From: Eledone cirrhosa
Taxonomy: Eukaryota
Direction: 5' to 3'
Assembly: GCA_964016885.1 (NCBI GenBank)
Contig: OZ024755.1
Location: forward strand, 38,316,001 to 38,380,000
Length of the DNA: 64,000 nt
In this document: positions 5,543 to 52,811 of the stretch, one piece after another
Layout of the letters: every line of letters starts with the position of its first letter
How positions within the stretch are numbered: the first letter of the stretch is position 1
Made by a program: the position numbers and the translations under genes
Notes under the pieces: generated by a model
What the model saw: the letters and a program-made list of their open reading frames with translations, nothing else
The model's database searches: none
What the model was told of the DNA's origin: nothing

Positions 5543-5957
5543 AAAGGAATGAACCTCTATCAGTTTTGATAGGGAGTGTACCAGCTGTCTCAGCCCACAG
5601 AACAACTTATGAAGCTAATTAATGGGTAAGTGGCTGAGTATTCCATAGTCACAAGTAGCCCCTCTCTCTTTCGCTCATACTCGCAATCCTCTCTCTACCA
5701 GAATTGAAGGAATGGTATTTAGGGGGAAAAATGATTAAATTTGTCCTGCTCTAAATATATGTCTCTGACTGTTGTAGCTAGGACAACACGAATACCAAGG
5801 TTTATTGGCCCTTGCCTTTCCTTGCACCTCCAAAAAGAACCTTCTAGGTGCTGATCTAGCTGCTGTTCCCACGAGATATAACAATTACCTGAATATTATT
5901 TCATTATTATCATCTGTTTACTTTACCAAGTTGTTACAGACCAAGTTAGGGCCTAAT

Positions 5958-8900
5958 CAGAGCTACTATTCCCCTTAGACCAGTGGTTCCCAGAGCTACT
6001 GTTGACCTTAGACCAGTGGTTCCCAGAGCTACTGTTGACCTTAGAACAGTGGTTCCCAGAGCTACTGTTGACCTTAGACCAGTGGTTCCCAGAGCTACTG
6101 TTGAACTTAGACCAGTGGTTCCCAGAGCTACTGTTGAACTTAGACCAGTGGTTCCCAGAGCTACTGTTGACCTTAGACCAGTGGTTCCCAGAGCTACTGT
6201 TGAACTTAGACCAGTGGTTCCCAGAGCTACTGTTGACCTTAGACCAGTGGTTCCCAGAGCTACTGTTGAACTTAGACCAGTGGTTCCCAGAGCTACTGTT
6301 GAACTTAGACCAGTGGTTCCCAGAGCTACTGTTGAACTTAGACCAGTGGTTCCCAGAGCTACTGTTGACCTTAGACCAGTGGTTCCCAGAGCTACTGTTG
6401 ACCTTAGACCAGTGGTTCCCAGAGCTACTGTTGAACTTAGACCAGTGGTTCCCAGAGCTACTGTTGACCTTAGACCAGTGGTTCCCAGAGCTATTGTTGA
6501 CCTTACACCAGTGGTTCCAGAGCTACTGTTGACCTTAGACCAGTGGTTCCCAGAACTACTGTTGACCTTAGACCAGTGGTTCCCAGAGCTATTGTTCCCC
6601 TTAGACCAGTGGTTCCCAGAGCTACTGTTGACCTTAGACCAGTGGTTCCCAGAGCTACTGTTGACCTTAGACCAGTAGTTCCCAGAGCTACTGTTGACCT
6701 TAGACCAGTAGTTCCCAGAGCTACTGTTGACCTTAGACCAGTGGTTCCCAGAGCTACTGTTGACCTTAGACCAGTAGTTCCCAGAGCTACTGTTCCCCTT
6801 AGACCAGTGCTCCCCAGAACTACTGTTGACCTTAGACCAGTAGTTCCCAGAGCTACTGTTGACCTTAGACCAGTAGTTCCCAGAGCTACTGTTCCCCTTA
6901 GACCAGTGGTCCCCAGAACTACTGTTGACCTTAGACCAGTGGTTCCCAGAGCTACTGTTGACCTTAGACCAGTGGTTCCCAGAGCTACTGTTCCCCTTAG
7001 ACCAGTAGTTCCCAGAGCTACTGTTCCCCTTAGACCAGTAGTTCCCAGAGCTACTGTTGACCTTAGACCAGTGGTTCCCAGAGCTACTGTTGACCTTAGA
7101 CCAGTAGTTCCCAGAGCTACTGTTGACCTTAGACCAGTAGTTCCCAGAGCTACTGTTGACCTTAGACCAGTAGTTCCCAGAGCTACTGTTGACCTTAGAC
7201 CAGTAGTTCCCAGAGCTACTGTTGAACATAGACCAGTAGTTCCCAGAGCTACTGTTGACCTTAGACCAGTAGTTCCCAGAGCTACTGTTCCCCTTAGACC
7301 AGTGGTCCCCAGAACTACTGTTGACCTTAGACCAGTGGTTCCCAGAGCTACTGTTGACCTTAGACCAGTGGTTCCCAGAGCTACTGTTCCCCTTAGACCA
7401 GTAGTTCCCAGAGCTACTGTTCCCCTTAGACCAGTAGTTCCCAGAGCTACTGTTGACCTTAGACCAGTGGTTCCCAGAGCTACTGTTGACCTTAGACCAG
7501 TAGTTCCCAGAGCTACTGTTGACCTTAGACCAGTAGTTCCCAGAGCTACTGTTGACCTTAGACCAGTAGTTCCCAGAGCTACTGTTGACCTTAGACCAGT
7601 AGTTCCCAGAGCTACTGTTGAACATAGACCAGTAGTTCCCAGAGCTACTGTTGACCTTAGACCAGTGGTTCCCAGAGCTACTGTTCCCCTTAGACCAGTG
7701 GTTCCCAGAGCTATTGTTCCCCTTAGACCAGTGGTTCCCAGAGCTACTGTTCCCCTTAGACCAGTAGTTCCCAGAGCTACTGTTGACCTTAGACCAGTGG
7801 TTCCCAGAGCTACTGTTCCCCTTAGACCAGTAGTTCCCAGAGCTATTGTTGACCTTAGACCAGTGGTTCCCAGAGCTACTGTTCCCCTTAGACCAGTAGT
7901 TCCCAGAGCTACTGTTGACCTTAGACCAGTGGTTCCCAGAGCTACTGTTCCCCTTAGACCAGTGGTTCCCAGAACTACTGTTCCCCTTAGACCAGTGGTT
8001 CCCAGAGCTACTGTTCCCATTAGACCAGTAGTTCCCAGAGCTACTGTTGACCTTAGACCAGTGGTTCCCAGAGCTACTGTTCCCCTTAGACCAGTAGTTC
8101 CCAGAGCTATTGTTGACCTTAGACCAGTGGTTCCCAGAGCTACTGTTCCCCTTAGACCAGTAGTTCCCAGAGCTACTGTTGACCTTAGACCAGTGGTTCC
8201 CAGAGCTATTGTTGACCTTAGACCAGTGGTTCCCAGAGCTATTGTTCCCCTTAGACCAGTGGTTCCCAGAGCTACTGTTCCCCTTAGACCAGTGGTTCCC
8301 AGAGCTACTGTTCCCATTAGACCAGTAGTTCCCAGAGCTACTGTTGACCTTAGACCAGTGGTTCCCAGAGCTATTGTTGACCTTAGACCAGTGGTTCCCA
8401 GAGCTATTGTTCCCCTTAGACCAGTGGTTCCCAGAGCTACTGTTCCCCTTAGACCAGTGGTTCCCAGAGCTACTGTTCCCATTAGACCAGTAGTTCCCAG
8501 AGCTACTGTTGACCTTAGACCAGTGGTTCCCAGAGCTACTGTTCCCCTTAGACCAGTAGTTCCCAGAGCTACTGTTCCCCTTAGACCAGTAGTTCCCAGA
8601 GCTACTGTTGACCTTAGACCAGTGGTTCCCAGAGCTACTGTTGACCTTAGACCAGTAGTTCCCAGAGCTACTGTTGACCTTAGACCAGTAGTTCCCAGAG
8701 CTACTGTTGACCTTAGACCAGTAGTTCCCAGAGCTACTGTTGACCTTAGACCAGTAGTTCCCAGAGCTACTGTTGAACATAGACCAGTAGTTCCCAGAGC
8801 TACTGTTGACCTTAGACCAGTGGTTCCCAGAGCTACTGTTCCCCTTAGACCAGTGGTTCCCAGAGCTATTGTTCCCCTTAGACCAGTGGTTCCCAGAGCT

Positions 8901-11900
8901 ACTGTTCCCCTTAGACCAGTAGTTCCCAGAGCTACTGTTGACCTTAGACCAGTGGTTCCCAGAGCTACTGTTCCCCTTAGACCAGTAGTTCCCAGAGCTA
9001 TTGTTGACCTTAGACCAGTGGTTCCCAGAGCTACTGTTCCCCTTAGACCAGTAGTTCCCAGAGCTACTGTTGACCTTAGACCAGTGGTTCCCAGAGCTAC
9101 TGTTCCCCTTAGACCAGTGGTTCCCAGAACTACTGTTCCCCTTAGACCAGTGGTTCCCAGAGCTACTGTTCCCATTAGACCAGTAGTTCCCAGAGCTACT
9201 GTTGACCTTAGACCAGTGGTTCCCAGAGCTACTGTTCCCCTTAGACCAGTAGTTCCCAGAGCTATTGTTGACCTTAGACCAGTGGTTCCCAGAGCTACTG
9301 TTCCCCTTAGACCAGTAGTTCCCAGAGCTACTGTTGACCTTAGACCAGTGGTTCCCAGAGCTATTGTTGACCTTAGACCAGTGGTTCCCAGAGCTATTGT
9401 TCCCCTTAGACCAGTGGTTCCCAGAGCTACTGTTCCCCTTAGACCAGTGGTTCCCAGAGCTACTGTTCCCATTAGACCAGTAGTTCCCAGAGCTACTGTT
9501 GACCTTAGACCAGTGGTTCCCAGAGCTATTGTTGACCTTAGACCAGTGGTTCCCAGAGCTATTGTTCCCCTTAGACCAGTGGTTCCCAGAGCTACTGTTC
9601 CCCTTAGACCAGTGGTTCCCAGAGCTACTGTTCCCATTAGACCAGTAGTTCCCAGAGCTACTGTTGACCTTAGACCAGTGGTTCCCAGAGCTACTGTTCC
9701 CCTTAGACCAGTAGTTCCCAGAGCTATTGTTGACCTTAGACCAGTGGTTCCCAGAGCTACTGTTCCCCTTAGACCAGTAGTTCCCAGAGCTACTGTTGAC
9801 CTTAGACCAGTGGTTCCCAGAGCTACTGTTCCCCTTAGACCAGTGGTTCCCAGAACTACTGTTGACCTTAGACCAGTGGTTCCCAGAGCTATTGTTCCCC
9901 TTAGACCAGTGGTTCCCAGACCTACTGTTGACCTTAGACCAGTGGTTCCCAGAGCTATTGTTCCCCTTAGACCAGTGGTTCCCAGAGCTACTGTTGACCT
10001 TAGACCAGTGGTTCCCAGAGCTACTGTTGACCTTAGACCAGTGGTTCCCAGAGCTACTGTTGACCTTAGACCAGTAGTTCCCAGAACTACTGTTGACCTT
10101 AGACCAGTGGTTCCCAGAGCTACTGTTGACCTTAGACCAGTAGTTCCCAGAGCTACTGTTCCCCTTAGACCAGTAGTTCCCAGAGCTACTGTTCCCCTTA
10201 GACCAGTAGTTCCCAGAGCTACTGTTGACCTTAGACCAGTAGTTCCCAGAGCTACTGTTGACCTTAGACCAGTGGTTCCCACAGCTACTGTTGACCTTAG
10301 ACCAGTGGTTCCCAGAGCTACTGTTGACCTTAGACCAGTGGTTCCCAGAGCTACTGTTGACCTTAGACCAGTGGTTCCCACAGCTACTGTTGACCTTAGA
10401 CCAGTGGTTCCCAGAGCTACTGTTGACCTTAGACCAGTGGTTCCCACAGCTACTGTTGACTTTAGACCAGTGGTTCCCAGAGCTACTGTTGACCTTAGAC
10501 CAGTGGTTCCCACAGCTACTGTTGACCTTAGACCAGTGGTTCCCAGAGCTACTGTTGACCTTAGACTAGTGGTTCCCAGAGCTACTGTTGACCTTAGACC
10601 AGTGGTTCCCAGAGCTACTGTTGACCTTAGACCAGTGGTTCCCATAGCTACTGTTGACCTTAGACCAGTGGTTCCCAGAGCTACTGTTGACCTTAGACCA
10701 GTGGTTCCCAGAGCTACTGTTGACCTTAGACCAGTGGTTCCCAGAGCTACTGTTGACCTTAGACCAGTAGTTCCCAGAGCTACTGTTCCCCTTAGACCAG
10801 TAGTTCCCAGAGCTACTGTTGACCTTAGACCAGTGGTTCACACAGCTACTGTTGACCTTAGACCAGTGGTTCCCAGAGCTACTGTTGACCTTAGACCAGT
10901 GGTTCCCAGGGCTACTGTTGACCTTAGACCAGTAGTTCCCAGAGCTACTGTTGACCTTAGACCAGTGGTTCCCAGAGCTACTGTTGACCTTAGACCAGTG
11001 GTTCCCAGAGCTACTGTTGACCTTAGACCAGTGGTCCCCAGAGCTACTGTTGACCTTAGACCAGTGGTTCCCAGAGCTACTGTTGACCTTAGACCAGTGG
11101 TTCCCAGAGCTACTGTTGACCTTAGACCAGTAGTTCCCAGAGCTACTGTTGACCTTAGACCAGTAGTTCCCAGAGCTACTGTTGACCTTAGACCAGTGGT
11201 TCCCAGAGCTACTGTTCCCCTTAGACCAGTGGTTCCCAGAGCTACTGTTGACCTTAGACCAGTGGTTCCCAGAGCTACTGTTGACCTTAGACTAGTGGTT
11301 CCCAGAGCTACTGTTGACCTTAGACCAGTGGTTCCCAGAGCTACTGTTGACCTTAGACCAGTGGTTCCCAGAGCTACTGTTGACCTTAGACCAGTGGTTT
11401 CCAGAGCTATTGTTGACCTTAGACCAGTGGTTCCCAGAGCTATTGTTGACCTTAGACCAGTGGTTCCCAGAGCTACCGTTCCCCTTAGACCAGTGGTTCC
11501 CAGAGCTACTGTTGACCTTAGACCAGTGGTTCCCAGAGCTACTGTTCCCCTTAGACTAGTGGTTCCCAGAGCTACTGTTGACCTTAGACCAGTGGTTCCC
11601 AGAGCTACTGTTGACCTTAGACCAGTGGTTCCCAGAGCTACTGTTGACCTTAGACCAGTGGTTCCCAGAGCTACTGTTGACCTTAGACCAGTGGTCCCCA
11701 GAGCTACTGTTGACCTTAGACTAGTGGTTCCCAGAGCTACTGTTGACCTTAGACCAGTGGTTCCCAGACCTACTGTTCCACTTAGACCAGTGGTTCCCAG
11801 AGCTACTGTTGACCTTAGACCAGTGGTTCCCAGAGCTATTGTTGACCTTAGACCAGTGGTTCCCAGAGCTACTGTTCCCCTTAGACCAGTGGTTCCCAGA

Positions 11901-14900
11901 GCTACTGTTGACCTTAGACTAGTGGTTCCCAGAGCTACTGTTGACCTTAGACCAGTGGTTCCCAGAGCTACTGTTGACCTTAGACCAGTGGTTCCCAGAG
12001 CTATTGTTGACCTTAGACCAGTGGTTCCCAGAGCTACTGTTGACCTTATACCAGTGGTTCCCAGAGCTACTGTTGACCTTAGACCAGTGGTTCCCAGAGC
12101 TACTGTTCCCCTTAGACCAGTGGTTCCCAGAGCTACTGTTGACCTTAGACCAGAGGTTCACAGAGCTATTGTTGACCTTAGACCAGTGGTTCCCAGAGCT
12201 ACTGTTGACCTTAGACCAGTGGTTCCCAGAGCTATTGTTGACCTTAGACCAGTGGTTCCCAGAGCTACTGTTGACCTTAGACCAGTAGTTCCCAGAGCTA
12301 CTGTTGACCTTAGACCAGTAGTTCCCAGAGCTATTGTTCCCCTTAGACCAGTGGTTCCCAGAGCTACTGTTGACCTTAGACCAGTAGTTCCCAGAGCTAT
12401 TGTTCCCCTTAGACCAGTGGTTCCCAGAGCTACTGTTGACCTTAGACCAGTAGTTCCCAGAGCTACTGTTGACCTTAGACCAGTAGTTCCCAGAGCTACT
12501 GTTGACCTTAGACCAGTAGTTCCCAGAGCTATTGTTCCCCTTAGACCAGTGCTTCCCAGAGCTACTGTTGACCTTAGACCAGTGGTTCCCAGAGCTATTG
12601 TTCCCCTTAGACCAGTGGTTCCCAGAGCTACTGTTGACCTTAGACCAGTAGTTCCCAGAGCTACTGTTGACCTTAGACCAGTGGTTCCAAGAGCTACTGT
12701 TGACCTTAGACCAGTAGTTCCCAGAGCTACTGTTGACCTTAGACCAGTGGTTCCCAGAGCTACTGTTGACCTTAGACCAGTAGTTCCCAGAGCTACTGTT
12801 GACCTTAGACCAGTGGTTCCCAGAGCTACTGTTGACCTTAGACCAGTGGTTCCCAGAGCTACTGTTGACCTTAGACCAGTGGTTCCCAGAGCTACTGTTG
12901 ACCTTAGACCAGTAGTTCCCAGAGCTACTGTTGACCTTAGACCAGTAGTTCCCAGAGCTATTGTTCCCCTTAGACCAGTGGTTCCCAGAGCTACTGTTGA
13001 CCTTAGACCAGTAGTTCCCAGAGCTACTGTTGACCTTAGACCAGTGGTTCCAAGAGCTACTGTTGACCTTAGACCAGTAGTTCCCAGAGCTACTGTTGAC
13101 CTTAGACCAGTGGTTCCCATAGCTACTGTTGACCTTAGACCAGTGGTTCCCAGAGCTACTGTTGACCTTAGACCAGTGGTTCCCAGAGCTACTGTTGACC
13201 TTAGACCAGTGGTTCCCAGAGCTACTGTTGACCTTAGACCAGTAGTTCCCAGAGCTACTGTTCCCCTTAGACCAGTAGTTCCCAGAGCTACTGTTGACCT
13301 TAGACCAGTGGTTCACACAGCTACTGTTGACCTTAGACCAGTGGTTCCCAGAGCTACTGTTGACCTTAGACCAGTGGTTCCCAGGGCTACTGTTGACCTT
13401 AGACCAGTAGTTCCCAGAGCTACTGTTGACCTTAGACCAGTGGTTCCCAGAGCTACTGTTGACCTTAGACCAGTGGTTCCCAGAGCTACTGTTGACCTTA
13501 GACCAGTGGTCCCCAGAGCTACTGTTGACCTTAGACCAGTGGTTCCCAGAGCTACTGTTGACCTTAGACCAGTGGTTCCCAGAGCTACTGTTGACCTTAG
13601 ACCAGTAGTTCCCAGAGCTACTGTTGACCTTAGACCAGTAGTTCCCAGAGCTACTGTTGACCTTAGACCAGTGGTTCCCAGAGCTACTGTTCCCCTTAGA
13701 CCAGTGGTTCCCAGAGCTACTGTTGACCTTAGACCAGTGGTTCCCAGAGCTACTGTTGACCTTAGACCAGTGGTTCCCAGAGCTACTGTTGACCTTAGAC
13801 CAGTGGTTCCCAGAGCTACTGTTGACCTTAGACCAGTGGTTTCCAGAGCTATTGTTGACCTTAGACCAGTGGTTCCCAGAGCTACTGTTGACCTTAGACC
13901 AGTGGTTCCCAGAGCTACCGTTCCCCTTAGACCAGTGGTTCCCAGAGCTACTGTTGACCTTAGACCAGTGGTTCCCAGAGCTACTGTTCCCCTTAGACTA
14001 GTGGTTCCCAGAGCTACTGTTGACCTTAGACCAGTGGTTCCCAGAGCTACTGTTGACCTTAGACCAGTGGTTCCCAGAGCTACTGTTGACCTTAGACCAG
14101 TCGTTCCCAGAGCTACTGTTGACCTTAGACCAGTGGTCCCCAGAGCTACTGTTGACCTTAGACTAGTGTTTCCCAGAGCTACTGTTGACCTTAGACCAGT
14201 GGTTCCCAGAGCTACTGTTCCACTTAGACCAGTGGTTCCCAGAGCTACTGTTGACCTTAGACCAGTGGTTCCCAGAGCTATTGTTGACCTTAGACCAGTG
14301 GTTCCCAGAGCTACTGTTCCCCTTAGACCAGTGGTTCCCAGAGCTACTGTTGCCCTTAGACTAGTGGTTCCCAGAGCTACTGTTGACCTTAGACCAGTGG
14401 TTCCCAGAGCTACTGTTGACCTTAGACCAGTGGTTCCCAGAGCTATTGTTGACCTTAGACCAGTGGTTCCCAGAGCTACTGTTGACCTTATACCAGTGGT
14501 TCCCAGAGCTACTGTTGACCTTAGACCAGTGGTTCCCAGAGCTACTGTTCCCCTTAGACCAGTGGTTCCCAGAGCTACTGTTGACCTTAGACCAGTGGTT
14601 CACAGAGCTATTGTTGACCTTAGACCAGTGGTTCCCAGAGCTACTGTTGACCTTAGACCAGTGGTTCCCAGAGCTATTGTTGACCTTAGACCAGTGGTTC
14701 CCAGAGCTACTGTTGACCTTAGACCAGTAGTTCCCAGAGCTACTGTTGACCTTAGACCAGTAGTTCCCAGAGCTATTGTTCCCCTTAGACCAGTGGTTCC
14801 CAGAGCTACTGTTGACCTTAGACCAGTAGTTCCCAGAGCTATTGTTCCCCTTAGACCAGTGGTTCCCAGAGCTACTGTTGACCTTAGACCAGTAGTTCCC

Positions 14901-16540
14901 AGAGCTACTGTTGACCTTAGACCAGTAGTTCCCAGAGCTACTGTTGACCTTAGACCAGTAGTTCCCAGAGCTATTGTTCCCCTTAGACCAGTGGTTCCCA
15001 GAGCTACTGTTGACCTTAGACCAGTGGTTCCCAGAGCTATTGTTCCCCTTAGACCAGTGGTTCCCAGAGCTACTGTTGACCTTAGACCAGTAGTTCCCAG
15101 AGCTACTGTTGACCTTAGACCAGTGGTTCCAAGAGCTACTGTTGACCTTAGACCAGTAGTTCCCAGAGCTACTGTTGACCTTAGACCAGTGGTTCCCAGA
15201 GCTACTGTTGACCTTAGACCAGTAGTTCCCAGAGCTACTGTTGACCTTAGACCAGTGGTTCCCAGAGCTACTGTTGACCTTAGACCAGTGGTTCCAAGAG
15301 CTACTGTTGACCTTAGACCAGTAGTTCCCAGAGCTACTGTTGACCTTAGACCAGTGGTTCCCAGAGCTACTGTTGACCTTAGACCAGTAGTTCCCAGAGC
15401 TACTGTTGACCTTAGACCAGTGGTTCCCAGAGCTACTGTTGACCTTAGACCAGTGGTTCCCAGAGCTACTGTTGACCTTAGACCAGTGGTTCCCAGAGCT
15501 ACTGTTGACCTTAGACCAGTAGTTCCCAGAGCTACTGTTGACCTTAGACCAGTAGTTCCCAGAGCTATTGTTCCCCTTAGACCAGTGGTTCCCAGAGCTA
15601 CTGTTGACCTTAGACCAGTAGTTCCCAGAGCTACTTGTTGACCTTAGACCAGTAGTTCCCAGAGCTACTGTTGACCTTAGACCAGTGGTTCCCAGAGCTA
15701 CTGTTGACCTTAGACCAGTAGTTCCCAGAGCTACTGTTGACCTTAGACCAGTGGTTCCCAGAGCTACTGTTGACCTTAGACCAGTAGTTCCCAGAGCTAC
15801 TGTTGACCTTAGACCAGTAGTTCCCAGAGCTATTGTTCCCCTTAGACCAGTGGTTCCCAGAGCTACTGTTGACCTTAGACCAGTAGTTCCCAGAGCTACT
15901 GTTGACCTTAGACCAGTAGTTCCCAGAGCTATTGTTCCCCTTAGACCAGTGGTTCCCAGAGCTACTGTTGACCATAGACCAGTGGTTCCCAGAGCTACTG
16001 TTGACCTTAGACCAGTAGTTCCCAGAACTACTGTTGACCTTAGACCAGTGGTTCCCAGAGCTACTGTTGACCTTAGACCAGTAGTTCCCAGAGCTACTGT
16101 TGACCTTAGACCAGTAGTTCCCAGAGCTACTGTTGACCTTAGACCAGTGGTTCCCAGAGCTACTGTTGACCTTAGACCAGTGGTTCCCAGAGCTACTGTT
16201 GACCTTAGACCAGTAGTTCCCAGAGCTACTGTTGACCTTAGACCAGTAGTTCCCAGAGCTACTGTTGACCTTAGACCAGTGGTTCCCAGAGCTATTGTTC
16301 CCCTTAGACCAGTGGTTCCCAGAGCTATTGTTGACCTTAGACCAGTAGTTCCCAGAGCTACTGTTGACCTTAGACCAGTGGTTCCCAGAGCTACTGTTGA
16401 CCTTAGACCAGTAGTTCCCAGAGCTACTGTTGACCTTAGACCAGTGGTTCCCAGAGCTACTATTCCCCTTAGACCAGTGGTTCCCAGAGCTACTGTTGAC
16501 CTTAGACCAGTGGTTCCCAGAGCTACTGTCCTCTTTAGAC
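5958..16540. repeat. 33-bp minisatellite, ~320 copies (CAGAGCTACTGTTGACCTTAGACCAGTGGTTCC)
   Basis: Continuous 33-bp period with only two 1-bp indels (~6515, ~15635). Confidence 0.98.
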
Positions 16541-16790
16541 AGGTGATTCCCAAACCACACGCCATGAGGTGTAACTAGATACACTGCAAAAGACTAAGAT
16601 TAAGTTTTCAGATGTGAAAAATATAAACTGAAATTCATATGAAAGTTCCTATATTGGTGTCAAAGTGGTAAACTCGTAAAGTTTAGTAAGATTCTGTTAA
16701 GAATTAGAAAAGTCTTTTGAATGCTGGTGTTCCAGCATATTTTTATTTATTCAAAAATGTGCCATGACTAAAAAAGTTTGGGAACCACTA
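16541..16790. mobile_element. hAT (Charlie/Buster-type) MITE
   Basis: TIRs AGGTGATTCCCAAAC / GTTTGGGAACCACTA. 8-bp TSD CTTTAGAC (16533-40) / CCTTAGAC (16791-98) with central TA. Confidence 0.8.
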
Positions 16791-26171: not shown

Positions 26172-26615
26172 TTTAGTCTGTCTCGAGCTTGGAGGCTCCT
26201 CAGTTTCTGTGGTGTGAAGTGACTGAGAGAACAAGACTCACCCCTGGACAGGACGCCAGTCCATTGCAGGGTTAAAGTCTGTCTCGAGATTGGGGCTCAT
26301 CAGGTTCATGCTTATCCCAGTTTCTGTGGCGTGAAGTGACTGAGAGAACAAGACTCACCCCTGGACAGGACGCCAGTCCATTGCAGGGTTAAAGTCTGTC
26401 TCGAGATTGGGGCTCATCAGGTTCATGCTTATCCCAGTTTCTGTGGTGTGAAGTGACTGAGAAAACAAGACTCACCCCTGGACAAGATGCCAGTCCATCG
26501 CAGGGTTAAACCCCCAGCTATTGCTGGTACTCATTTTCAGCTGAGTATACTGGGTCAAAGTGAATTGAACCTATGATATGATTGTAAGTTCAACATCCTT
26601 ACCACTAGGCTACAT
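26172..26615 (-). mobile_element. tRNA-SINE (third family) whose 3' ~120 bp is tandemly triplicated
   Basis: 120-bp period (26281/26401). The head TAGCCTAGTGGTAAGG...GGTTCAATTC is on the minus strand. Related to 56719-56976. Confidence 0.65.
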
Positions 26616-27193: not shown

Positions 27194-27279
<86 letters not shown>

Positions 27280-27434
27280 AGTAAGATGTATGGTAGGTCG
27301 TATGTGAATCGCGATGATCACGTCTGACCTACCAAATATGTGACGGTAGCTAGTTAAGCTCTATGCGTATACGCAGAGCAGAAATATTATTGAAAAAGAA
27401 CAAAGGAACTATTATGACATTATAACAAGTTTAT

Positions 27435-27481
27435 TGCCGACAGCCGTTTCGTCCGACCATATGGTGGGACTTTTCAAGGCA
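27435..27481 (-). ncRNA. Antisense twin of the U3-A8 hammerhead (other arm of the fold-back)
   Basis: The reverse complement reads TGCC-TTGAAAA-GTCCCACCATATGGTCGGAC-GAAA-CGGCTG-TC-GGCA. Confidence 0.75.
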
Positions 27482-27607
27482 TATAACATGTGACTGTAAG
27501 ATCATTATTTACATCAACGTATCACTCAAGGCTAGCAGTTTGAAATTGTGGTATACATCAGCATTATAACGAGTTTATTGCCGACATTCATACAATCACA
27601 TGTTATA

Positions 27608-27654
27608 TGCCTTGAAAAGTCCCACCATGGGGTCGGACGAAACGGCTGTCGGCA
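27608..27654 (+). ncRNA. Minimal hammerhead ribozyme with U3-A8 core variant
   Basis: TGCC-TTGAAAA-GTCC(caccatggggtc)GGAC-GAAA-CGGCTG-TC-GGCA, with a GUC cleavage triplet. Confidence 0.75.
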
Positions 27655-27698
27655 ATAAACTCGTTATAATGTCATAATAGTTCCTTTGTTCTTTTTCA

Positions 27699-27737
<39 letters not shown>

Positions 27738-28038: not shown

Positions 28039-28409
28039 GTATATATGTATGTGTGTGTAAAGTGGTTGTATAGGTGTCGCAACAAAAAGCACCCAGTATT
28101 CATTGTAAATGGGGTTGGCGATAGGAAGGGCATCCAGGTGTAGGAACTAGCCGCATTTACAGTGAGTACTAGGTGCTTTTTGTTGTATCACCTACACAAC
28201 CACTTTACAGTGTAGACTGAGTGCATCTTTCTGTGTACCTACTTGTCTCTCTTTCTATCTATCTATCTCTTTCTTTCTATCTGTCTAGCTCTCCTCTCTC
28301 AATATATATATATATATATATATAACGTCCAGTTACTTTAGGTTCACCAGAGTTAGCACTCGATGCGTAGTTTCCAGTTGGTAAAGAGGTGTAGTACCAA
28401 GCAGAGTGT

Positions 28410-29035
28410 AATAATAAAAAGGACGATTTGTTATGTCTTCGTTACGTTTATTGATTGGTGACGCGTGTTTCGCTATTGATCAGCTCAAGGTTCGATCTGT
28501 ATTGATCTAGCCCGACTCTGGAATCAACAGCTCATCAGACTGCTGTTGTGGTAATGACAAAATGAACCTGTAGGGCTTAGAAAGGTCTATAATGGTTCAC
28601 ATTCATTTATGGTGGTCAGTTTTAGTTTGTTTCGATTGGTGGTTTTGCTATAAAGAATGTTTTGGTATGTGTGATTGGTGGGGGAGGGATTATAATGAAG
28701 AGGTGGGGAGAGATGGTTGGTGGGGGTGTGGTGTTTTGGCTGTTTCATAGGCATTATGGCGAGACGAGAGTGGTGGGTGAGGAAGGGGTTATGGGCTATA
28801 TGTGATGGGAGATGAAAGAGTGTGGTGCTGTACTAGGGGGGGGGGGGTTCTGTTGGTCAGAGGTTTGTCAAAGAGCAATAAAATAAAGTAAATTAAACCT
28901 AGGTTAGGGGTGAGGCTAAGGGCTTTTTGTACTAGAAACAAAAGGATTGAATCTTGAGCTGATCAATAGAAAAACACACATCACTACTAAATAAACGTAA
29001 TGAAGACATAACAAATCGTCCTTTTTATTATTATT
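28410..29035. mobile_element. PLE 3'-end fragment (minus) with an inverted partial copy
   Basis: ~28410-28490 is the reverse complement of ~28950-29035. The G-rich spacer and hammerhead-like motif lie on the minus strand. Confidence 0.6.
28455..28543 (-). ncRNA. Hammerhead-like motif with extended stem II
   Basis: Minus strand CTGATGA-GCTGTTGAT...ATCAATAGC-GAAA-CACGCG-TC. Stem I pairing is poor. Confidence 0.5.
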
Positions 29036-43453: not shown

Positions 43454-43788
43454 AGAGGCACATGGCTTAGTGGTTAGAGCATTGGGCTTGCAATCAAAAG
43501 GTTGTGAGTTCAATTCTCAGACCGGGTGATGTGTTTTTTCCTTGAGCAAGGCACTTTATTTCACATTGCTCCAGTTTACTCAGCTGTAGAAATGAGATGA
43601 TAGGGACTGGGGTCCATATCATTCCACTGCAAAGTGGTGGTGGAGGTGCCATGGCAAAAAAGCACCCAGCACTCACTGTAAATGAGGTTGGTGTTAGGAA
43701 GGGCATCCAGCTGTAGAAATCAAGCCAGAATCAGTTCCCGTCCCACCCTTGCAAGCAGGGAAAAGCGGGCGTAAAATGATGATGATGA

Positions 43789-49601: not shown

Positions 49602-49920
49602 CACCCCCGTCCCACTACCCCTACCCCACCGCCATCTACACCACCCCTTTCGATGTAAAGCTATGTTGGTACCACAACATCCAGTCCTCAATAAATGAGG
49701 TCGTGTAGGTGTCACGACAAAAAAACCACACAGTCCATGCTGTAATGTGGCCGTGTAGGTAACACGGTAAAAACCTCCCAGTCCACACTGTAAACGTGGT
49801 TGGTGTTAGGAAGGGCACCCAGCCATAGAAAACCCGCAAGACAACCAATCTTGCCTCAAGTGGGACAATTCCCGTTCAGACCCATGCTAGCGTGGAAGAT
49901 GGCCATTAAACGATGATGAT
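49602..49920 (+). mobile_element. 3'UTR fragment of a sister RTE subfamily
   Basis: Colinear but diverged match to ~52455-52800, ending AAACGATGATGAT. Flanked by (TA)n on both sides. Confidence 0.85.
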
Positions 49921-49938
49921 ATATATATATATATATAT

Positions 49939-52811
49939 AAAAAACGTGACAATCACCTGATCACCTATAGATCCGGGGAACACACAAGCCAGGTAGATTA
50001 TATCCTTACCAGAAGACGTGACAGAGTGTCTGTTGTAAACACTAAATCCCTCCCCCATGAAGAATGCACCTCCCAACATAGACTGATAATTAGCGACCTC
50101 ATAGTCAGGACGAGACGTACTCGACAGCAGAAGAGGACTATCCTCAGGAGAAAAATATGGAAGCTAAAGGACCCCACAGCCAGGAATAAATTTCAAAGCA
50201 TATTACTTGATGCTTTCGACAGTAAGGAAGAACATTTAGAGTCGGACAATATAGAGGGAGAGTGGGAATTTCTGAAAGCAAACCTGCTGTTGGCGACAGA
50301 CGAAGTCTGTGGCTGGAGCAGGCCTGTAGGCAGGAGGAGAGTAACATGGTGGTGGAACAGTAAGGTGGAGGGGTCAATTAAGGCCAAAAAGCAGGCTTGG
50401 AAAGTATGGCGGGATGGGGGAAGTAGAGAAGACTATCAAGTGGCCAGGAGGGAAGCTAGGAGACAAGTGTACTTAGCAAGAAGGGAAGCTGAGGAAAGAA
50501 AGTTCAAGCATGTTCTACAACGCGATGACCAAAAACGTGAGGTGTTCAGGATTGCTAGGCAATGCGTCAAGGAAAACCGTGATATTGTCGGGGAGAAGTG
50601 TGTACTAAACGACGATGGCACACTTGCCATCACCGACGCTGATAAGAAGGTAGCTTGGAAGTGTCACTATGAAAGGCTACTAAATGAGGAGAATAAATGG
50701 GAGAAAGACAGTCTCCCCCATATCGACCCAATAGAGGGACCAGCAGTGTTAGTCGAGGGGAGTATAATAAGTAAGGCAATCAAGGATATGAAGACGGGTA
50801 AGGCGGCTGGGCCTTCGGAAATAGTTGCTGAGATGCTGAAGGCATCTGGCACGGTGGGACACACCATGGTCACCCGCATAGTTAACCAAGTCGTACAGAA
50901 TGGGGTTGTTCCGAAGGACTGGCATAGCAGCATCATCGTTAACTGTTATAAGGGTAAAGGAGACGCCCTAGATAGGAGTAACTATAGAGGCATTAAATTA
51001 ATCGACCAGGTCATGAAGGTCACGGAAAAAGTAATAGCGCAACTAATCAGAGAGAGAATTGACCTAGATGAAATGCAGTTCGGGTTTGTGTCAGGCAAAA
51101 GTACCACAGACGCTCTTTTCATAGTACGACAACTACAGGAGAAGTACCTAGCTAAAGGTAAACCCCTCTACTTAGCTTTTATCGACTTGGAGAAAGCCTT
51201 CGACAGAGTCCCCCGCTCCATTATCTGGTGGGCTCTTAGAAAACTAGGCGTTGACGAATGGCTTGTGAGGGCTATACAAGCCATGTATAAAGAAACAGTC
51301 AGCAAGGTTAGAATTAACAACGAATATAGTGAAGAGTTTAGCGTAAAAGTTGGCGTCCATCAGGGCTCTGTTCTCAGCCCACTACTATTTATTATTGCCC
51401 TTCAGGCTATAACAGAGGAGTTCAAGACAGGCTGCCCATGGGAACTCCTATACGCAAACGACCTGACACTCATAGCGGAATCAATGGCCGAGCTAGAGAA
51501 GAAATTCCAAACATGGAAGCACGGCCTAGAGTCAAAAGGACTTAAAATTAACCTGGCTAAGACCAAAGTACTAGTTTGTAGGAAAGAAAACAAGGCGGCG
51601 GTCCCTTCGGGGAAATGGTCGTGCTCGGTGTGTAGGAAAGGCGTAGGTAGAAACTCCATTTTATGTCCTAAATGCAAAGTATGGGTGCATAAAAGATGTA
51701 GTGGGATCACAGGTAAGCTAACTAAGAACATAGATTTTACATGTGGCCGGTGCTCTGGTGCAATAAGTAGCAGCAAGTGCCCACAAAATACTAGCTCTTT
51801 CAATTGCGCAGAGGGTTCTATAGAAATAGTGGACAGCTTCCGTTACCTGGGCGATAAAATCAGCAGTGGGGGAGGGTGCTCTGAAAGTACTGTAGCTAGA
51901 GTCAGAACTGGTTGGAAAAAGTTCAGAGAGCTTATACCACTATTAGCTGCTAAAGGGTTCTCCCTAAAAATGAAAGGCAGGTTGTACGATGCCTGCATAC
52001 GAACAGCAATGCTGCATGGCAGTGAGACCTGGGCATTGTGTGCAGAGGATATACGCAGACTAGAGAGGAACGAAGCTTGCATGCTCCGCTGGATGTGTAA
52101 CAGTAATATACGTGAACGGCAAAGCATAAACGAACTAAGGAAAAAATTAGAGATAAGAGGGATCAGATGTTGTTTACTCGAGAGAAGGCTACGTTGGTAT
52201 GGACACGTGATGCGCATGAAAGTCGATAGCTGTATAACAAAGTGCAGGGCAATAAAGATAGACGGTAGTCACGGAATAGGCAGACCTAGAAAAACCTGGG
52301 ACGAGCTGATAAACTCCGACATCACACACTTACACCTCTCCAAGACAATGTCACTGGACCGAGACCTTTGGCGGTACTCAGTAACAGAGAAGACCCGCCT
52401 TACCTAAATACAAAGTAAAACCTACTACAGTCAGTAGGCATCTTTAACAAAATACACCCCGTCCCACCACCACCACCACCCCCACCCCATCCACACCACC
52501 CCGTTCTATGTAAAGTTATGTTGGTGCCGCGCCATCGAGGCCGAAACAAATGAGATCGTGTAGGTGTCACGACAAAAAAACACACAGTCCACGCTGTAAT
52601 GTGACCGTGTAGGCAACACGGTAAAAACCTCCCAGACCCACACTGTAAATGTGGTTGGTGTTAGGAAGGGCATCCAACTGTAGAAAACCTGCCAGACAGT
52701 CCTATGCGAGCAAGACAATCACTCTTGCCTCAAGTGGGACTACCCCCGTCCAAACCCATGCAAGCCTGGAACACGGACGTTAAACGTTGATGATGATGAT
52801 GATGATGATGA
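49939..52811 (+). mobile_element. 5'-truncated RTE-clade LINE (APE endonuclease C-terminus, RT, PHD-type finger, 3'UTR, (GAT)n tail)
   Basis: Uninterrupted ORF with QVDYIL/SQHRL (APE end), KGKGD..NYRGIKL, QFGF, FIDLEKAFDRV, GVHQGSVLSPLLF, LLYAND and RRLRWYGHVMR..GRPRKTW. It ends in TGATGATGATG and begins directly after a (TA)n tract. Confidence 0.95.
49942..52407 (+). pseudogene. RTE pol-like ORF remnant (open, 5'-truncated, catalytic YADD changed to YAND)
   Basis: ORF track 50026..52407 (793 aa). The frame extends upstream to ~49942 (KRDNHLITYRSGEHTSQVDYIL). TAC GCA AAC GAC at 51451-51462. Confidence 0.9.

What the first reader, a model, noticed from the sequence alone, without database searches (positions are those of the whole stretch)
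27388..27703. Twin hammerheads on opposite strands with a U3-A8 compensatory core (UUGAAAA)
Seen: both arms of this fold-back hold a complete motif TGCC-TTGAAAA-GTCC..GGAC-GAAA-CGGCTG-TC-GGCA. The two arms differ in the stem II loop but not in the core or stems. Established: C3-G8 is a tertiary Watson-Crick pair in the hammerhead core, and C3U/G8A can compensate. Inference: this is a functional non-canonical variant that CUGANGA pattern searches miss. One copy is sense to the host pre-mRNA but could be sequestered by its antisense twin.
Basis: partly seen in the sequence, partly recalled or inferred. Interest (0 to 1): 0.75.

Follow-up and report, generated by a model that had tools for sequence, protein, structure and literature searches.

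The report
Two-armed Penelope stub, known hammerhead variant
This hairpin is a short, mirror-image leftover of an abundant Penelope-type jumping gene, and its self-cutting-RNA motif carries a base-pair swap already described in such elements; this copy is likely inert, and the only fresher point is that the two ends of such insertions fall at two fixed sites, each in front of a small conserved RNA hairpin that likely tells the element's enzyme where to start copying.

Summary
Observation confirmed: both arms (27384-27501, 27588-27705; 112 of 118 complementary) hold a minimal type I hammerhead with a UUGAAAA (U3-A8) core. It is a 5'-truncated, two-armed insertion (about 27274-27705, in (TA)n) of a young Hydra-type Penelope-like retrotransposon: 98% identical to the 3' end of 5.3-kb RT/GIY-YIG elements, about 1,000 arm copies. 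Sister families carry C3-G8 at the same place, so the swap is a real compensatory change, but natural U3-A8 cores (PMC3088659), U3-A8 in Penelope elements and opposite-strand twins (PMC4209133) are published. Genomic copies mutate at core positions at the flank rate (0.93% vs 1.03%), no host gene was shown, and either strand's transcript makes the antisense arm first and folds into a -192 kcal/mol hairpin: this copy is likely silent. Side result: 39 of 39 resolved two-armed insertions have one end at +55 and the other at about +165 from the cleavage site (10 of 10 in two sister families), each just before a duplicated conserved hairpin. The scan noted this hairpin and two-end pattern before on other DNA (e1-9560118, e1-8665316). 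New member of a known kind.

The parts
27274..27563 (-). Long arm: 3' end (pLTR plus 110-nt tail) of a Penelope-like element, from -125 to about +160/165 relative to the hammerhead cleavage site
   Evidence: 98.3-98.7% identical over 298 nt to the 3' ends of full-length elements L031, L032; mapped
27435..27481 (-). Minimal type I hammerhead, U3-A8 core (UUGAAAA 27477-27471), predicted cut after C17 at 27439
27358..27380 (-). Conserved GCUC...GAGC hairpin just 3' of the short (+55) end site; present only in the long arm
27562..27586 (-). 25-nt extra fragment (-4 to +21) joined to the long arm by a 2-nt TG microhomology; likely a template switch
   Evidence: (I16, D7)
27588..27705 (+). Short arm: inverted, 5'-truncated copy from -63 to +55
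27608..27654 (+). Minimal type I hammerhead, U3-A8 core (27612-27618), self-complementary helix III strand 27642-27649, predicted cut after C17 at 27650
27266..27280 (.). (TA)n target remnant at the long-arm end
27703..27735 (.). (TA)n target remnant at the short-arm end

Best explanation
This is a 5'-truncated, two-armed insertion of a young Penelope-like retrotransposon family with Hydra-clade protein motifs, each arm carrying the element's terminal hammerhead with a U3-A8 core, and this copy is likely catalytically silent. Shown: both arms are the element's 3' end, inserted head to head in (TA)n, one ending at +55 and the other at about +165. Inferred: the endonuclease cut both strands of a (TA)n target and reverse transcription was primed from each side, once at each of two fixed start sites on the element RNA; both cDNAs stopped early and were joined at their 5'-truncated ends. 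Inferred: the hammerhead works, if at all, in the element's own tandem transcripts as a dimer through its self-complementary helix III (possibly protein-assisted), trimming or circularising unit-length RNA; selection for the U3-A8 pair acts on source elements, not on this copy. Inferred: a read-through transcript of either strand makes the antisense arm first and forms a long duplex, so no active ribozyme folds here.
For: [quoted passage not shown] About 1,000 arm copies (1,013 anchored matches). 16 inverted pairs among the first 100 listed hits, all with 3' ends outward. 95 of 100 copies end at +51-55 (54) or +162-165 (41), 4 run on into the ORF, 1 ends at +113. 39 of 39 insertions with both outer ends found have one short and one long end. 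Sister families at 68-75% RT identity have CUGAUGA at the same place with pair 1.1 changed C-G to U-A. Helix III strand self-pairs over 8 bp, -9.7 kcal/mol. Private changes: core 10 of 1070 bases, flanks 128 of 12393, Fisher p 0.87, 98 copies. Stem I probability about 1e-52 in the whole hairpin on both strands.
Against: No cleavage or RNA data. Pfam finds no RT family in the ORF; the Hydra assignment rests on motifs and by-eye comparison, with no tree. The unit (5.3 kb, 2.5-kb 3' non-coding part) is longer than published Hydra elements (generally under 3 kb). Absence of shared polymorphisms in the core (0 of 12 sites, against 22 of 196 flank sites) is not significant (p 0.62; recurrent alleles 0 of 12 vs 42 of 196, p 0.13), so selection on the core rests on between-family conservation and one compensatory event. 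Stem II shows more changes than the flanks (25 of 720) and three copies share a pair-breaking change. 35 of 74 rows had no partner end within the fetched range, and L134 has ends at +36 and +55.
Confidence: 0.92

Rival explanations
1. This copy has been co-opted: one hammerhead is sense to a host pre-mRNA and the antisense twin acts as a switch that sequesters it.
For: Both cores are intact; the hairpin would sequester the sense copy; a long intron cannot be excluded.
Against: Intact cores are expected in copies 1-2% diverged. No Pfam domain above cut-off in 109 of 109 non-repeat ORFs tested in the window, 73% of which is masked as repeat. The arrangement is the family's routine insertion pattern. 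On either strand the antisense arm is transcribed first, so no switch window exists; helix III has only 2 bp as a monomer.
Confidence: 0.03
2. The U3-A8 hammerhead of this family is a decayed, non-functional relic even in the source elements; the element transposes without it.
For: Hammerhead mutants did not impair insertion of the anole Poseidon element in vitro and no reads ended at its cut site (PMC11167929, part 2 read). Most copies here read through the cut site. Three copies share a stem II mismatch; L054/L055 have UGGAAAA. Naiads thrive without canonical hammerheads (PMC8557442).
Against: A double change that restores the 3-8 pair, with the other core positions unchanged across families whose flanks have diverged strongly; high-frequency variants inside the motif fall only at N7 and in loop II; helix III stays self-complementary in all families read.
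Confidence: 0.2
3. The fold-back is a miniature inverted-repeat DNA transposon or miRNA-type hairpin that happens to contain a hammerhead-like sequence.
For: Terminal inverted repeats in TA; weak Rfam miRNA hits, all far below gathering score.
Against: Arms have unequal outer ends and variable inner ends; spacer length varies from about 100 nt to 7.5 kb between copies; arms continue into an RT-endonuclease ORF in long copies.
Confidence: 0.01

Closest known systems
U3-A8 minimal hammerheads of Cercyon Penelope-like elements, Schistosoma mansoni (Cervera and De la Pena 2014, PMC4209133; parts 1-2 of 4 read)
   Same: Type I minimal hammerhead in the pLTR, U3-A8 instead of C3-G8, palindromic short helix III predicted to need a dimer, pairs of motifs 100-700 bp apart on opposite strands
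   Different: Different element clade and host; here helix III keeps a 4-nt wobble-palindromic loop and there is no unpaired base before stem II
Hydra clade of C-terminal-endonuclease Penelope-like elements (Craig et al. 2021, PMC8557442; section 11, passages, supplement parts 1, 2, 52 and a search of it read)
   Same: RW(K/R), DKT, CxCx5C linker, C-terminal GIY-YIG without CCHH, CxxC and CxH motifs, (TA)n target, hammerhead in pLTR, inverted 5'-truncated copy, tail at one end only
   Different: All Hydra hammerheads listed in their File S2 have C3-G8 cores; unit here 5.3 kb vs generally under 3 kb; tail about 110 nt vs the 30-40 bp described
PAc, Poseidon element of Anolis carolinensis (Frangieh et al. 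2024, PMC11167929; parts 1-2 of 4 read)
   Same: Two internal RT start sites explaining the tail, both DNA strands cut and extended, AT-rich target, predicted protein dimer, weak protein-assisted hammerhead
   Different: Start sites lie in one AC-rich stem-loop inside the ORF; here they are about 110 nt apart in the 5' non-coding region, each before its own copy of a conserved hairpin
Natural U3-A8 hammerheads (Perreault et al. 2011, PMC3088659; passages read)
   Same: C3-G8 covarying to U3-A8 in several natural hammerheads, reported as active in vitro
   Different: Not Penelope-specific

Membership tests
Type I hammerhead ribozyme (minimal, Penelope type) | Core N3-U4-G5-A6-N7-N8-A9 with a 3-8 Watson-Crick pair, G12-A13-A14, A15.1-U16.1, H17 | tested here: met
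   UUGAAAA, GAAA, GUC in both arms; 3-8 column pair C-G in 5 rows, U-A in 3, unpaired in 0 of 8 (one evolutionary event)
Type I hammerhead ribozyme (minimal, Penelope type) | Stems I and II, open stem I | tested here: met
   4-bp stem I and 4-bp stem II, G10.1-C11.1; pair 1.1 is C-G here and U-A in sister families. The automatic alignment A1 misplaces helix III and stem I of the sister families by one base, which lowers the counts
Type I hammerhead ribozyme (minimal, Penelope type) | Short palindromic helix III allowing a dimer | tested here: met
   8-bp self duplex, -9.7 kcal/mol
Type I hammerhead ribozyme (minimal, Penelope type) | Rfam RF00163 gathering score | tested here: not met
   20.1 bits against 34; expected for a core variant
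Type I hammerhead ribozyme (minimal, Penelope type) | Self-cleavage | not testable with these tools
   needs an assay
Penelope-like elements (EN+) | Single ORF with RT and C-terminal GIY-YIG in full-length relatives | tested here: met
   877-aa open frame in L031 and L037, YRDD and GIY-YIG-like motifs; Pfam GIY-YIG only E 0.015, no Pfam RT hit
Penelope-like elements (EN+) | Partial tandems forming pLTRs, inverted 5'-truncated copy, tail at one end | tested here: met
   L031, L032, L116; 39 of 39
Hydra clade | RWK-like motif, DKT, CxCx5C linker, no GxKF/Y, no CX2-5CxxC, CxxC and CxH near the C end | tested here: met
   RWR 37, DKT 121, CNCRKKDKC 721, CPH 847; CxxC intact in L037 and in the sister family, changed in L031
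Hydra clade | Insertion into (TA)n | tested here: met
Hydra clade | Length generally under 3 kb | tested here: not met
   unit 5,335 nt; a tendency in the paper, not a strict criterion
Hydra clade | Phylogenetic placement of the RT | not tested
   published Hydra proteins were seen in the supplement and compared by eye only; no tree built
Non-LTR retrozyme | Head-to-tail tandem of short non-coding hammerhead units | tested here: not met
   arms are truncated ends of a coding 5.3-kb element, not tandem monomers

The most novel reading that the evidence does not exclude
In Hydra-type Penelope elements a duplicated, sequence-conserved RNA hairpin marks each of two reverse-transcription start sites, and every insertion uses each site exactly once, one on each side of the DNA break: a dimeric RT-endonuclease would read two RNA signals and build the insertion from both ends inward. 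The rule holds in 39 of 39 resolved insertions of this family and 10 of 10 in two sister families, and a like hairpin can be seen by eye at the 3' end of published Hydra-2_Ajap and Hydra-2_Amil consensi.
Probability: 0.55. Interest if true: 0.6.

Novelty: new member of a known kind. Interest (0 to 1): 0.3.

Why it matters
As flagged (a U3-A8 twin hammerhead) it is ordinary: both the core variant and the inverted twin are in print for Penelope-like elements. Its modest value is a clean natural C3-G8 to U3-A8 switch between sister families of one genome, in a clade whose listed hammerheads all have C3-G8. The side result matters more: a strict one-short-one-long end rule tied to a duplicated RNA hairpin gives defined RNA elements to mutate in the existing in vitro Penelope system and would explain the tail and inverted arms of these elements.

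Tried and rejected
Genome-wide pattern counts suggested strong core conservation (12 of 617 changed in six core positions, against 113 of 1,013 in a six-base flank control), but the two anchors select different copy sets; the same-copy test on 98 copies (100 listed, two segmental duplicates dropped) shows no difference in private changes, so the first contrast was rejected as evidence. 5' truncation points do not cluster at the cut site: 1 of 23 truncations within 170 nt lies at +2. Sequencing runs: no RNA holder listed; contigs of two runs of one sample hold the family sequence but no piece spans 27565-27579; neither is evidence. PDB sequence search of the ORF: no hit. Protein atlas: sequence not held. 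Pfam on 109 window ORFs: one sub-threshold hit. MITE, miRNA and retrozyme readings rejected. ADAR-type editing does not explain the arm differences (only 2 of 6 are A/G). Przybilski and Hammann 2007 and Lunse et al. 2016 were not held; I saw only their reference-list entries, so whether they cover this exact variant or give U3-A8 rates is open. Supplements of PMC4209133 and PMC3088659 were not opened. Paper searches for the core variant; for the end rule: which returned only the two Penelope papers cited, neither describing a duplicated start-site hairpin in the parts I read.

Full report
Observation. The window holds an inverted repeat with arms 27384-27501 and 27588-27705 (118 nt, 95%) that folds at -191.9 kcal/mol, z -22.8. 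Each arm carries TGCC-TTGAAAA-GTCC-loop-GGAC-GAAA-CGGCTG-TC-GGCA; the six arm differences are two in loop II and four in flanks. Rfam Hammerhead_1 matches both at 20.1 bits, below its gathering score, and the gathering-level scan misses them.

What it belongs to. A search of the own genome gave 1,236 candidates, 40 scored, 42 matches at 95-100%. Pairs of hits 5.3 kb apart on one strand enclose an 877-aa open frame (L031). Window 27266-27563 matches the 3' end of these units at 98% over 298 nt, and the right arm is an inverted shorter copy of the same end. [quoted passage not shown] Pfam gives only a sub-threshold GIY-YIG hit and no RT hit; no tree was built. Anchored patterns count 617 core-side and 1,013 flank-side copies, 0 for reversed controls. 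Among the first 100 listed hits I count 16 inverted pairs within 8 kb, all with 3' ends outward. So the twin is the family's usual insertion form, which PMC8557442 describes for Penelope-like elements and PMC4209133 describes for their hammerheads (pairs 100-700 bp apart on opposite strands).

The U3-A8 core. Sister families with 68-75% RT identity (20 loci fetched) carry CUGAUGA hammerheads 253-270 nt before their ATG, where this family has its motif at 280 nt; pair 1.1 changes from C-G to U-A and helix III stays palindromic. In one search, 25 of 25 listed family C copies and 24 of 25 family B copies show a CUGANGA core (one is truncated before it). All Hydra hammerheads in File S2 of PMC8557442 have C3-G8. 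U3-A8 is therefore a derived compensatory change, one event. It is known: natural U3-A8 cores were reported in 2011 as active in vitro (PMC3088659) and about 1,300 U3-A8 motifs were found with Cercyon elements in S. mansoni (PMC4209133).

Drift test. Among 98 copies chosen by a flank anchor, private changes at the 12 core positions are 10 of 1,070 bases against 128 of 12,393 in flanks (p 0.87; without CpG sites p 0.72). Single copies drift like dead insertions. Shared high-frequency variants inside the motif fall only at N7 (58 A, 39 U, 3 other cores in the first 100 rows) and in loop II; their absence from the core is not significant. Stem II has more changes than flanks (25 of 720). Selection on the core is thus inferred only from the between-family comparison.

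Can this copy cleave? As a monomer helix III has two pairs; the strand self-pairs over 8 bp at -9.7 kcal/mol, the dimer design of Penelope hammerheads, which cleave weakly in vitro (PMC4209133) or only with the element's protein (PMC11167929). In the whole insertion the probability of stem I is about 1e-52 on either strand, and because the 3' ends face outward the antisense arm is always transcribed first. No host gene was shown: 109 of 109 non-repeat ORFs gave no Pfam hit above cut-off and 73% of the window is repeat-masked; a long intron is not excluded.

How the insertion formed. Of 100 copies, 54 end at +51-55 and 41 at +162-165 from the cut site, nearly all against (TA)n; 4 run on into the ORF and 1 ends at +113. 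Where both outer ends were found, 39 of 39 insertions have one short and one long end (binomial p 4e-12); 35 of 74 rows had no partner within up to 6 kb, one of them a missed reciprocal. In the partly overlapping set, 19 of 19 standard pairs including the window agree; L134 has +36 and +55. Sister families end at +55 and +149-154, and 6 of 6 and 4 of 4 listed pairs are short/long. Each end lies just 5' of a hairpin with a GCUC/GAGC base stem and a 2-nt 3' bulge, present twice in all three families, with compensatory changes in the upper stem of site 1. A similar hairpin is visible by eye behind the hammerhead in published Hydra-2_Ajap and Hydra-2_Amil consensi. This fits two priming events, one from each side of a double-strand break, as the anole element's two start sites, both-strand extension and predicted dimer suggest (PMC11167929); the tail at one end only is already noted in PMC8557442. 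The hairpin's role is inferred. In 13 of 17 well-covered pairs both arms agree at every diagnostic site, three differ at one and one at two; the window's arms differ at 4 of 8 comparable sites (three of them family polymorphisms), and the 25-nt middle fragment shares the right arm's +12 variant, so two template variants and a template switch are likely here. The fragment runs 4 nt past the cut site, which points to an uncut or religated template.

Earlier scan notes (unchecked AI notes, read after my own tests) reach like readings on other DNA: a Hydra-clade U3-A8 hammerhead with twin hairpins in this genome and two-armed repeats with two fixed ends.

Verdict. New family member of a known kind; the flagged feature is published; interest 0.3. 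The most novel reading not excluded is the duplicated start-site hairpin with a strict one-each end rule (probability 0.55, interest 0.6).

Noticed in passing
window 4015 (+), 18324 (-), 29982 (+), 63463 (-), 45302 (-): Five further hammerhead-like motifs with canonical CUGANGA cores from other repeat families; 29982/63463 and 4015/18324 look like copy pairs.
   Followed up: no
window 28409-28510 / 28932-29033: A second long inverted repeat (102 nt, 84%, 421 nt apart) 700 nt downstream.
   Followed up: no
window 5946-16593: 10.6-kb satellite of a 30-nt unit with open frames of up to 3,046 codons.
   Followed up: no
window 49891-52407 (+): 838-aa open frame that looks like an RTE-type LINE reverse transcriptase (name recalled from motifs, no family scan run).
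   Followed up: no
window 43463-43520 (+): tRNA-like match, 31.6 bits, possibly a SINE head.
   Followed up: no
window 26201-26551: Three tandem copies of a 117-nt unit.
   Followed up: no
L072 near 1415-1500: In a sister-family copy a (TA)n run abuts the 5' side of the second hairpin, before the ORF, as if the element's own start site had been a target.
   Followed up: no
G000:C1:140143811, 190829352, 214184300: Three separate copies share a stem II pair-breaking change, suggesting a source element with a weakened hammerhead still transposed.
   Followed up: partly
PMC8557442 File S7, Hydra-2_Ajap and Hydra-2_Amil 3' ends: The same GCUC...GAGC hairpin appears behind the hammerhead in a sea cucumber and a coral Hydra consensus (seen by eye).
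   Followed up: partly
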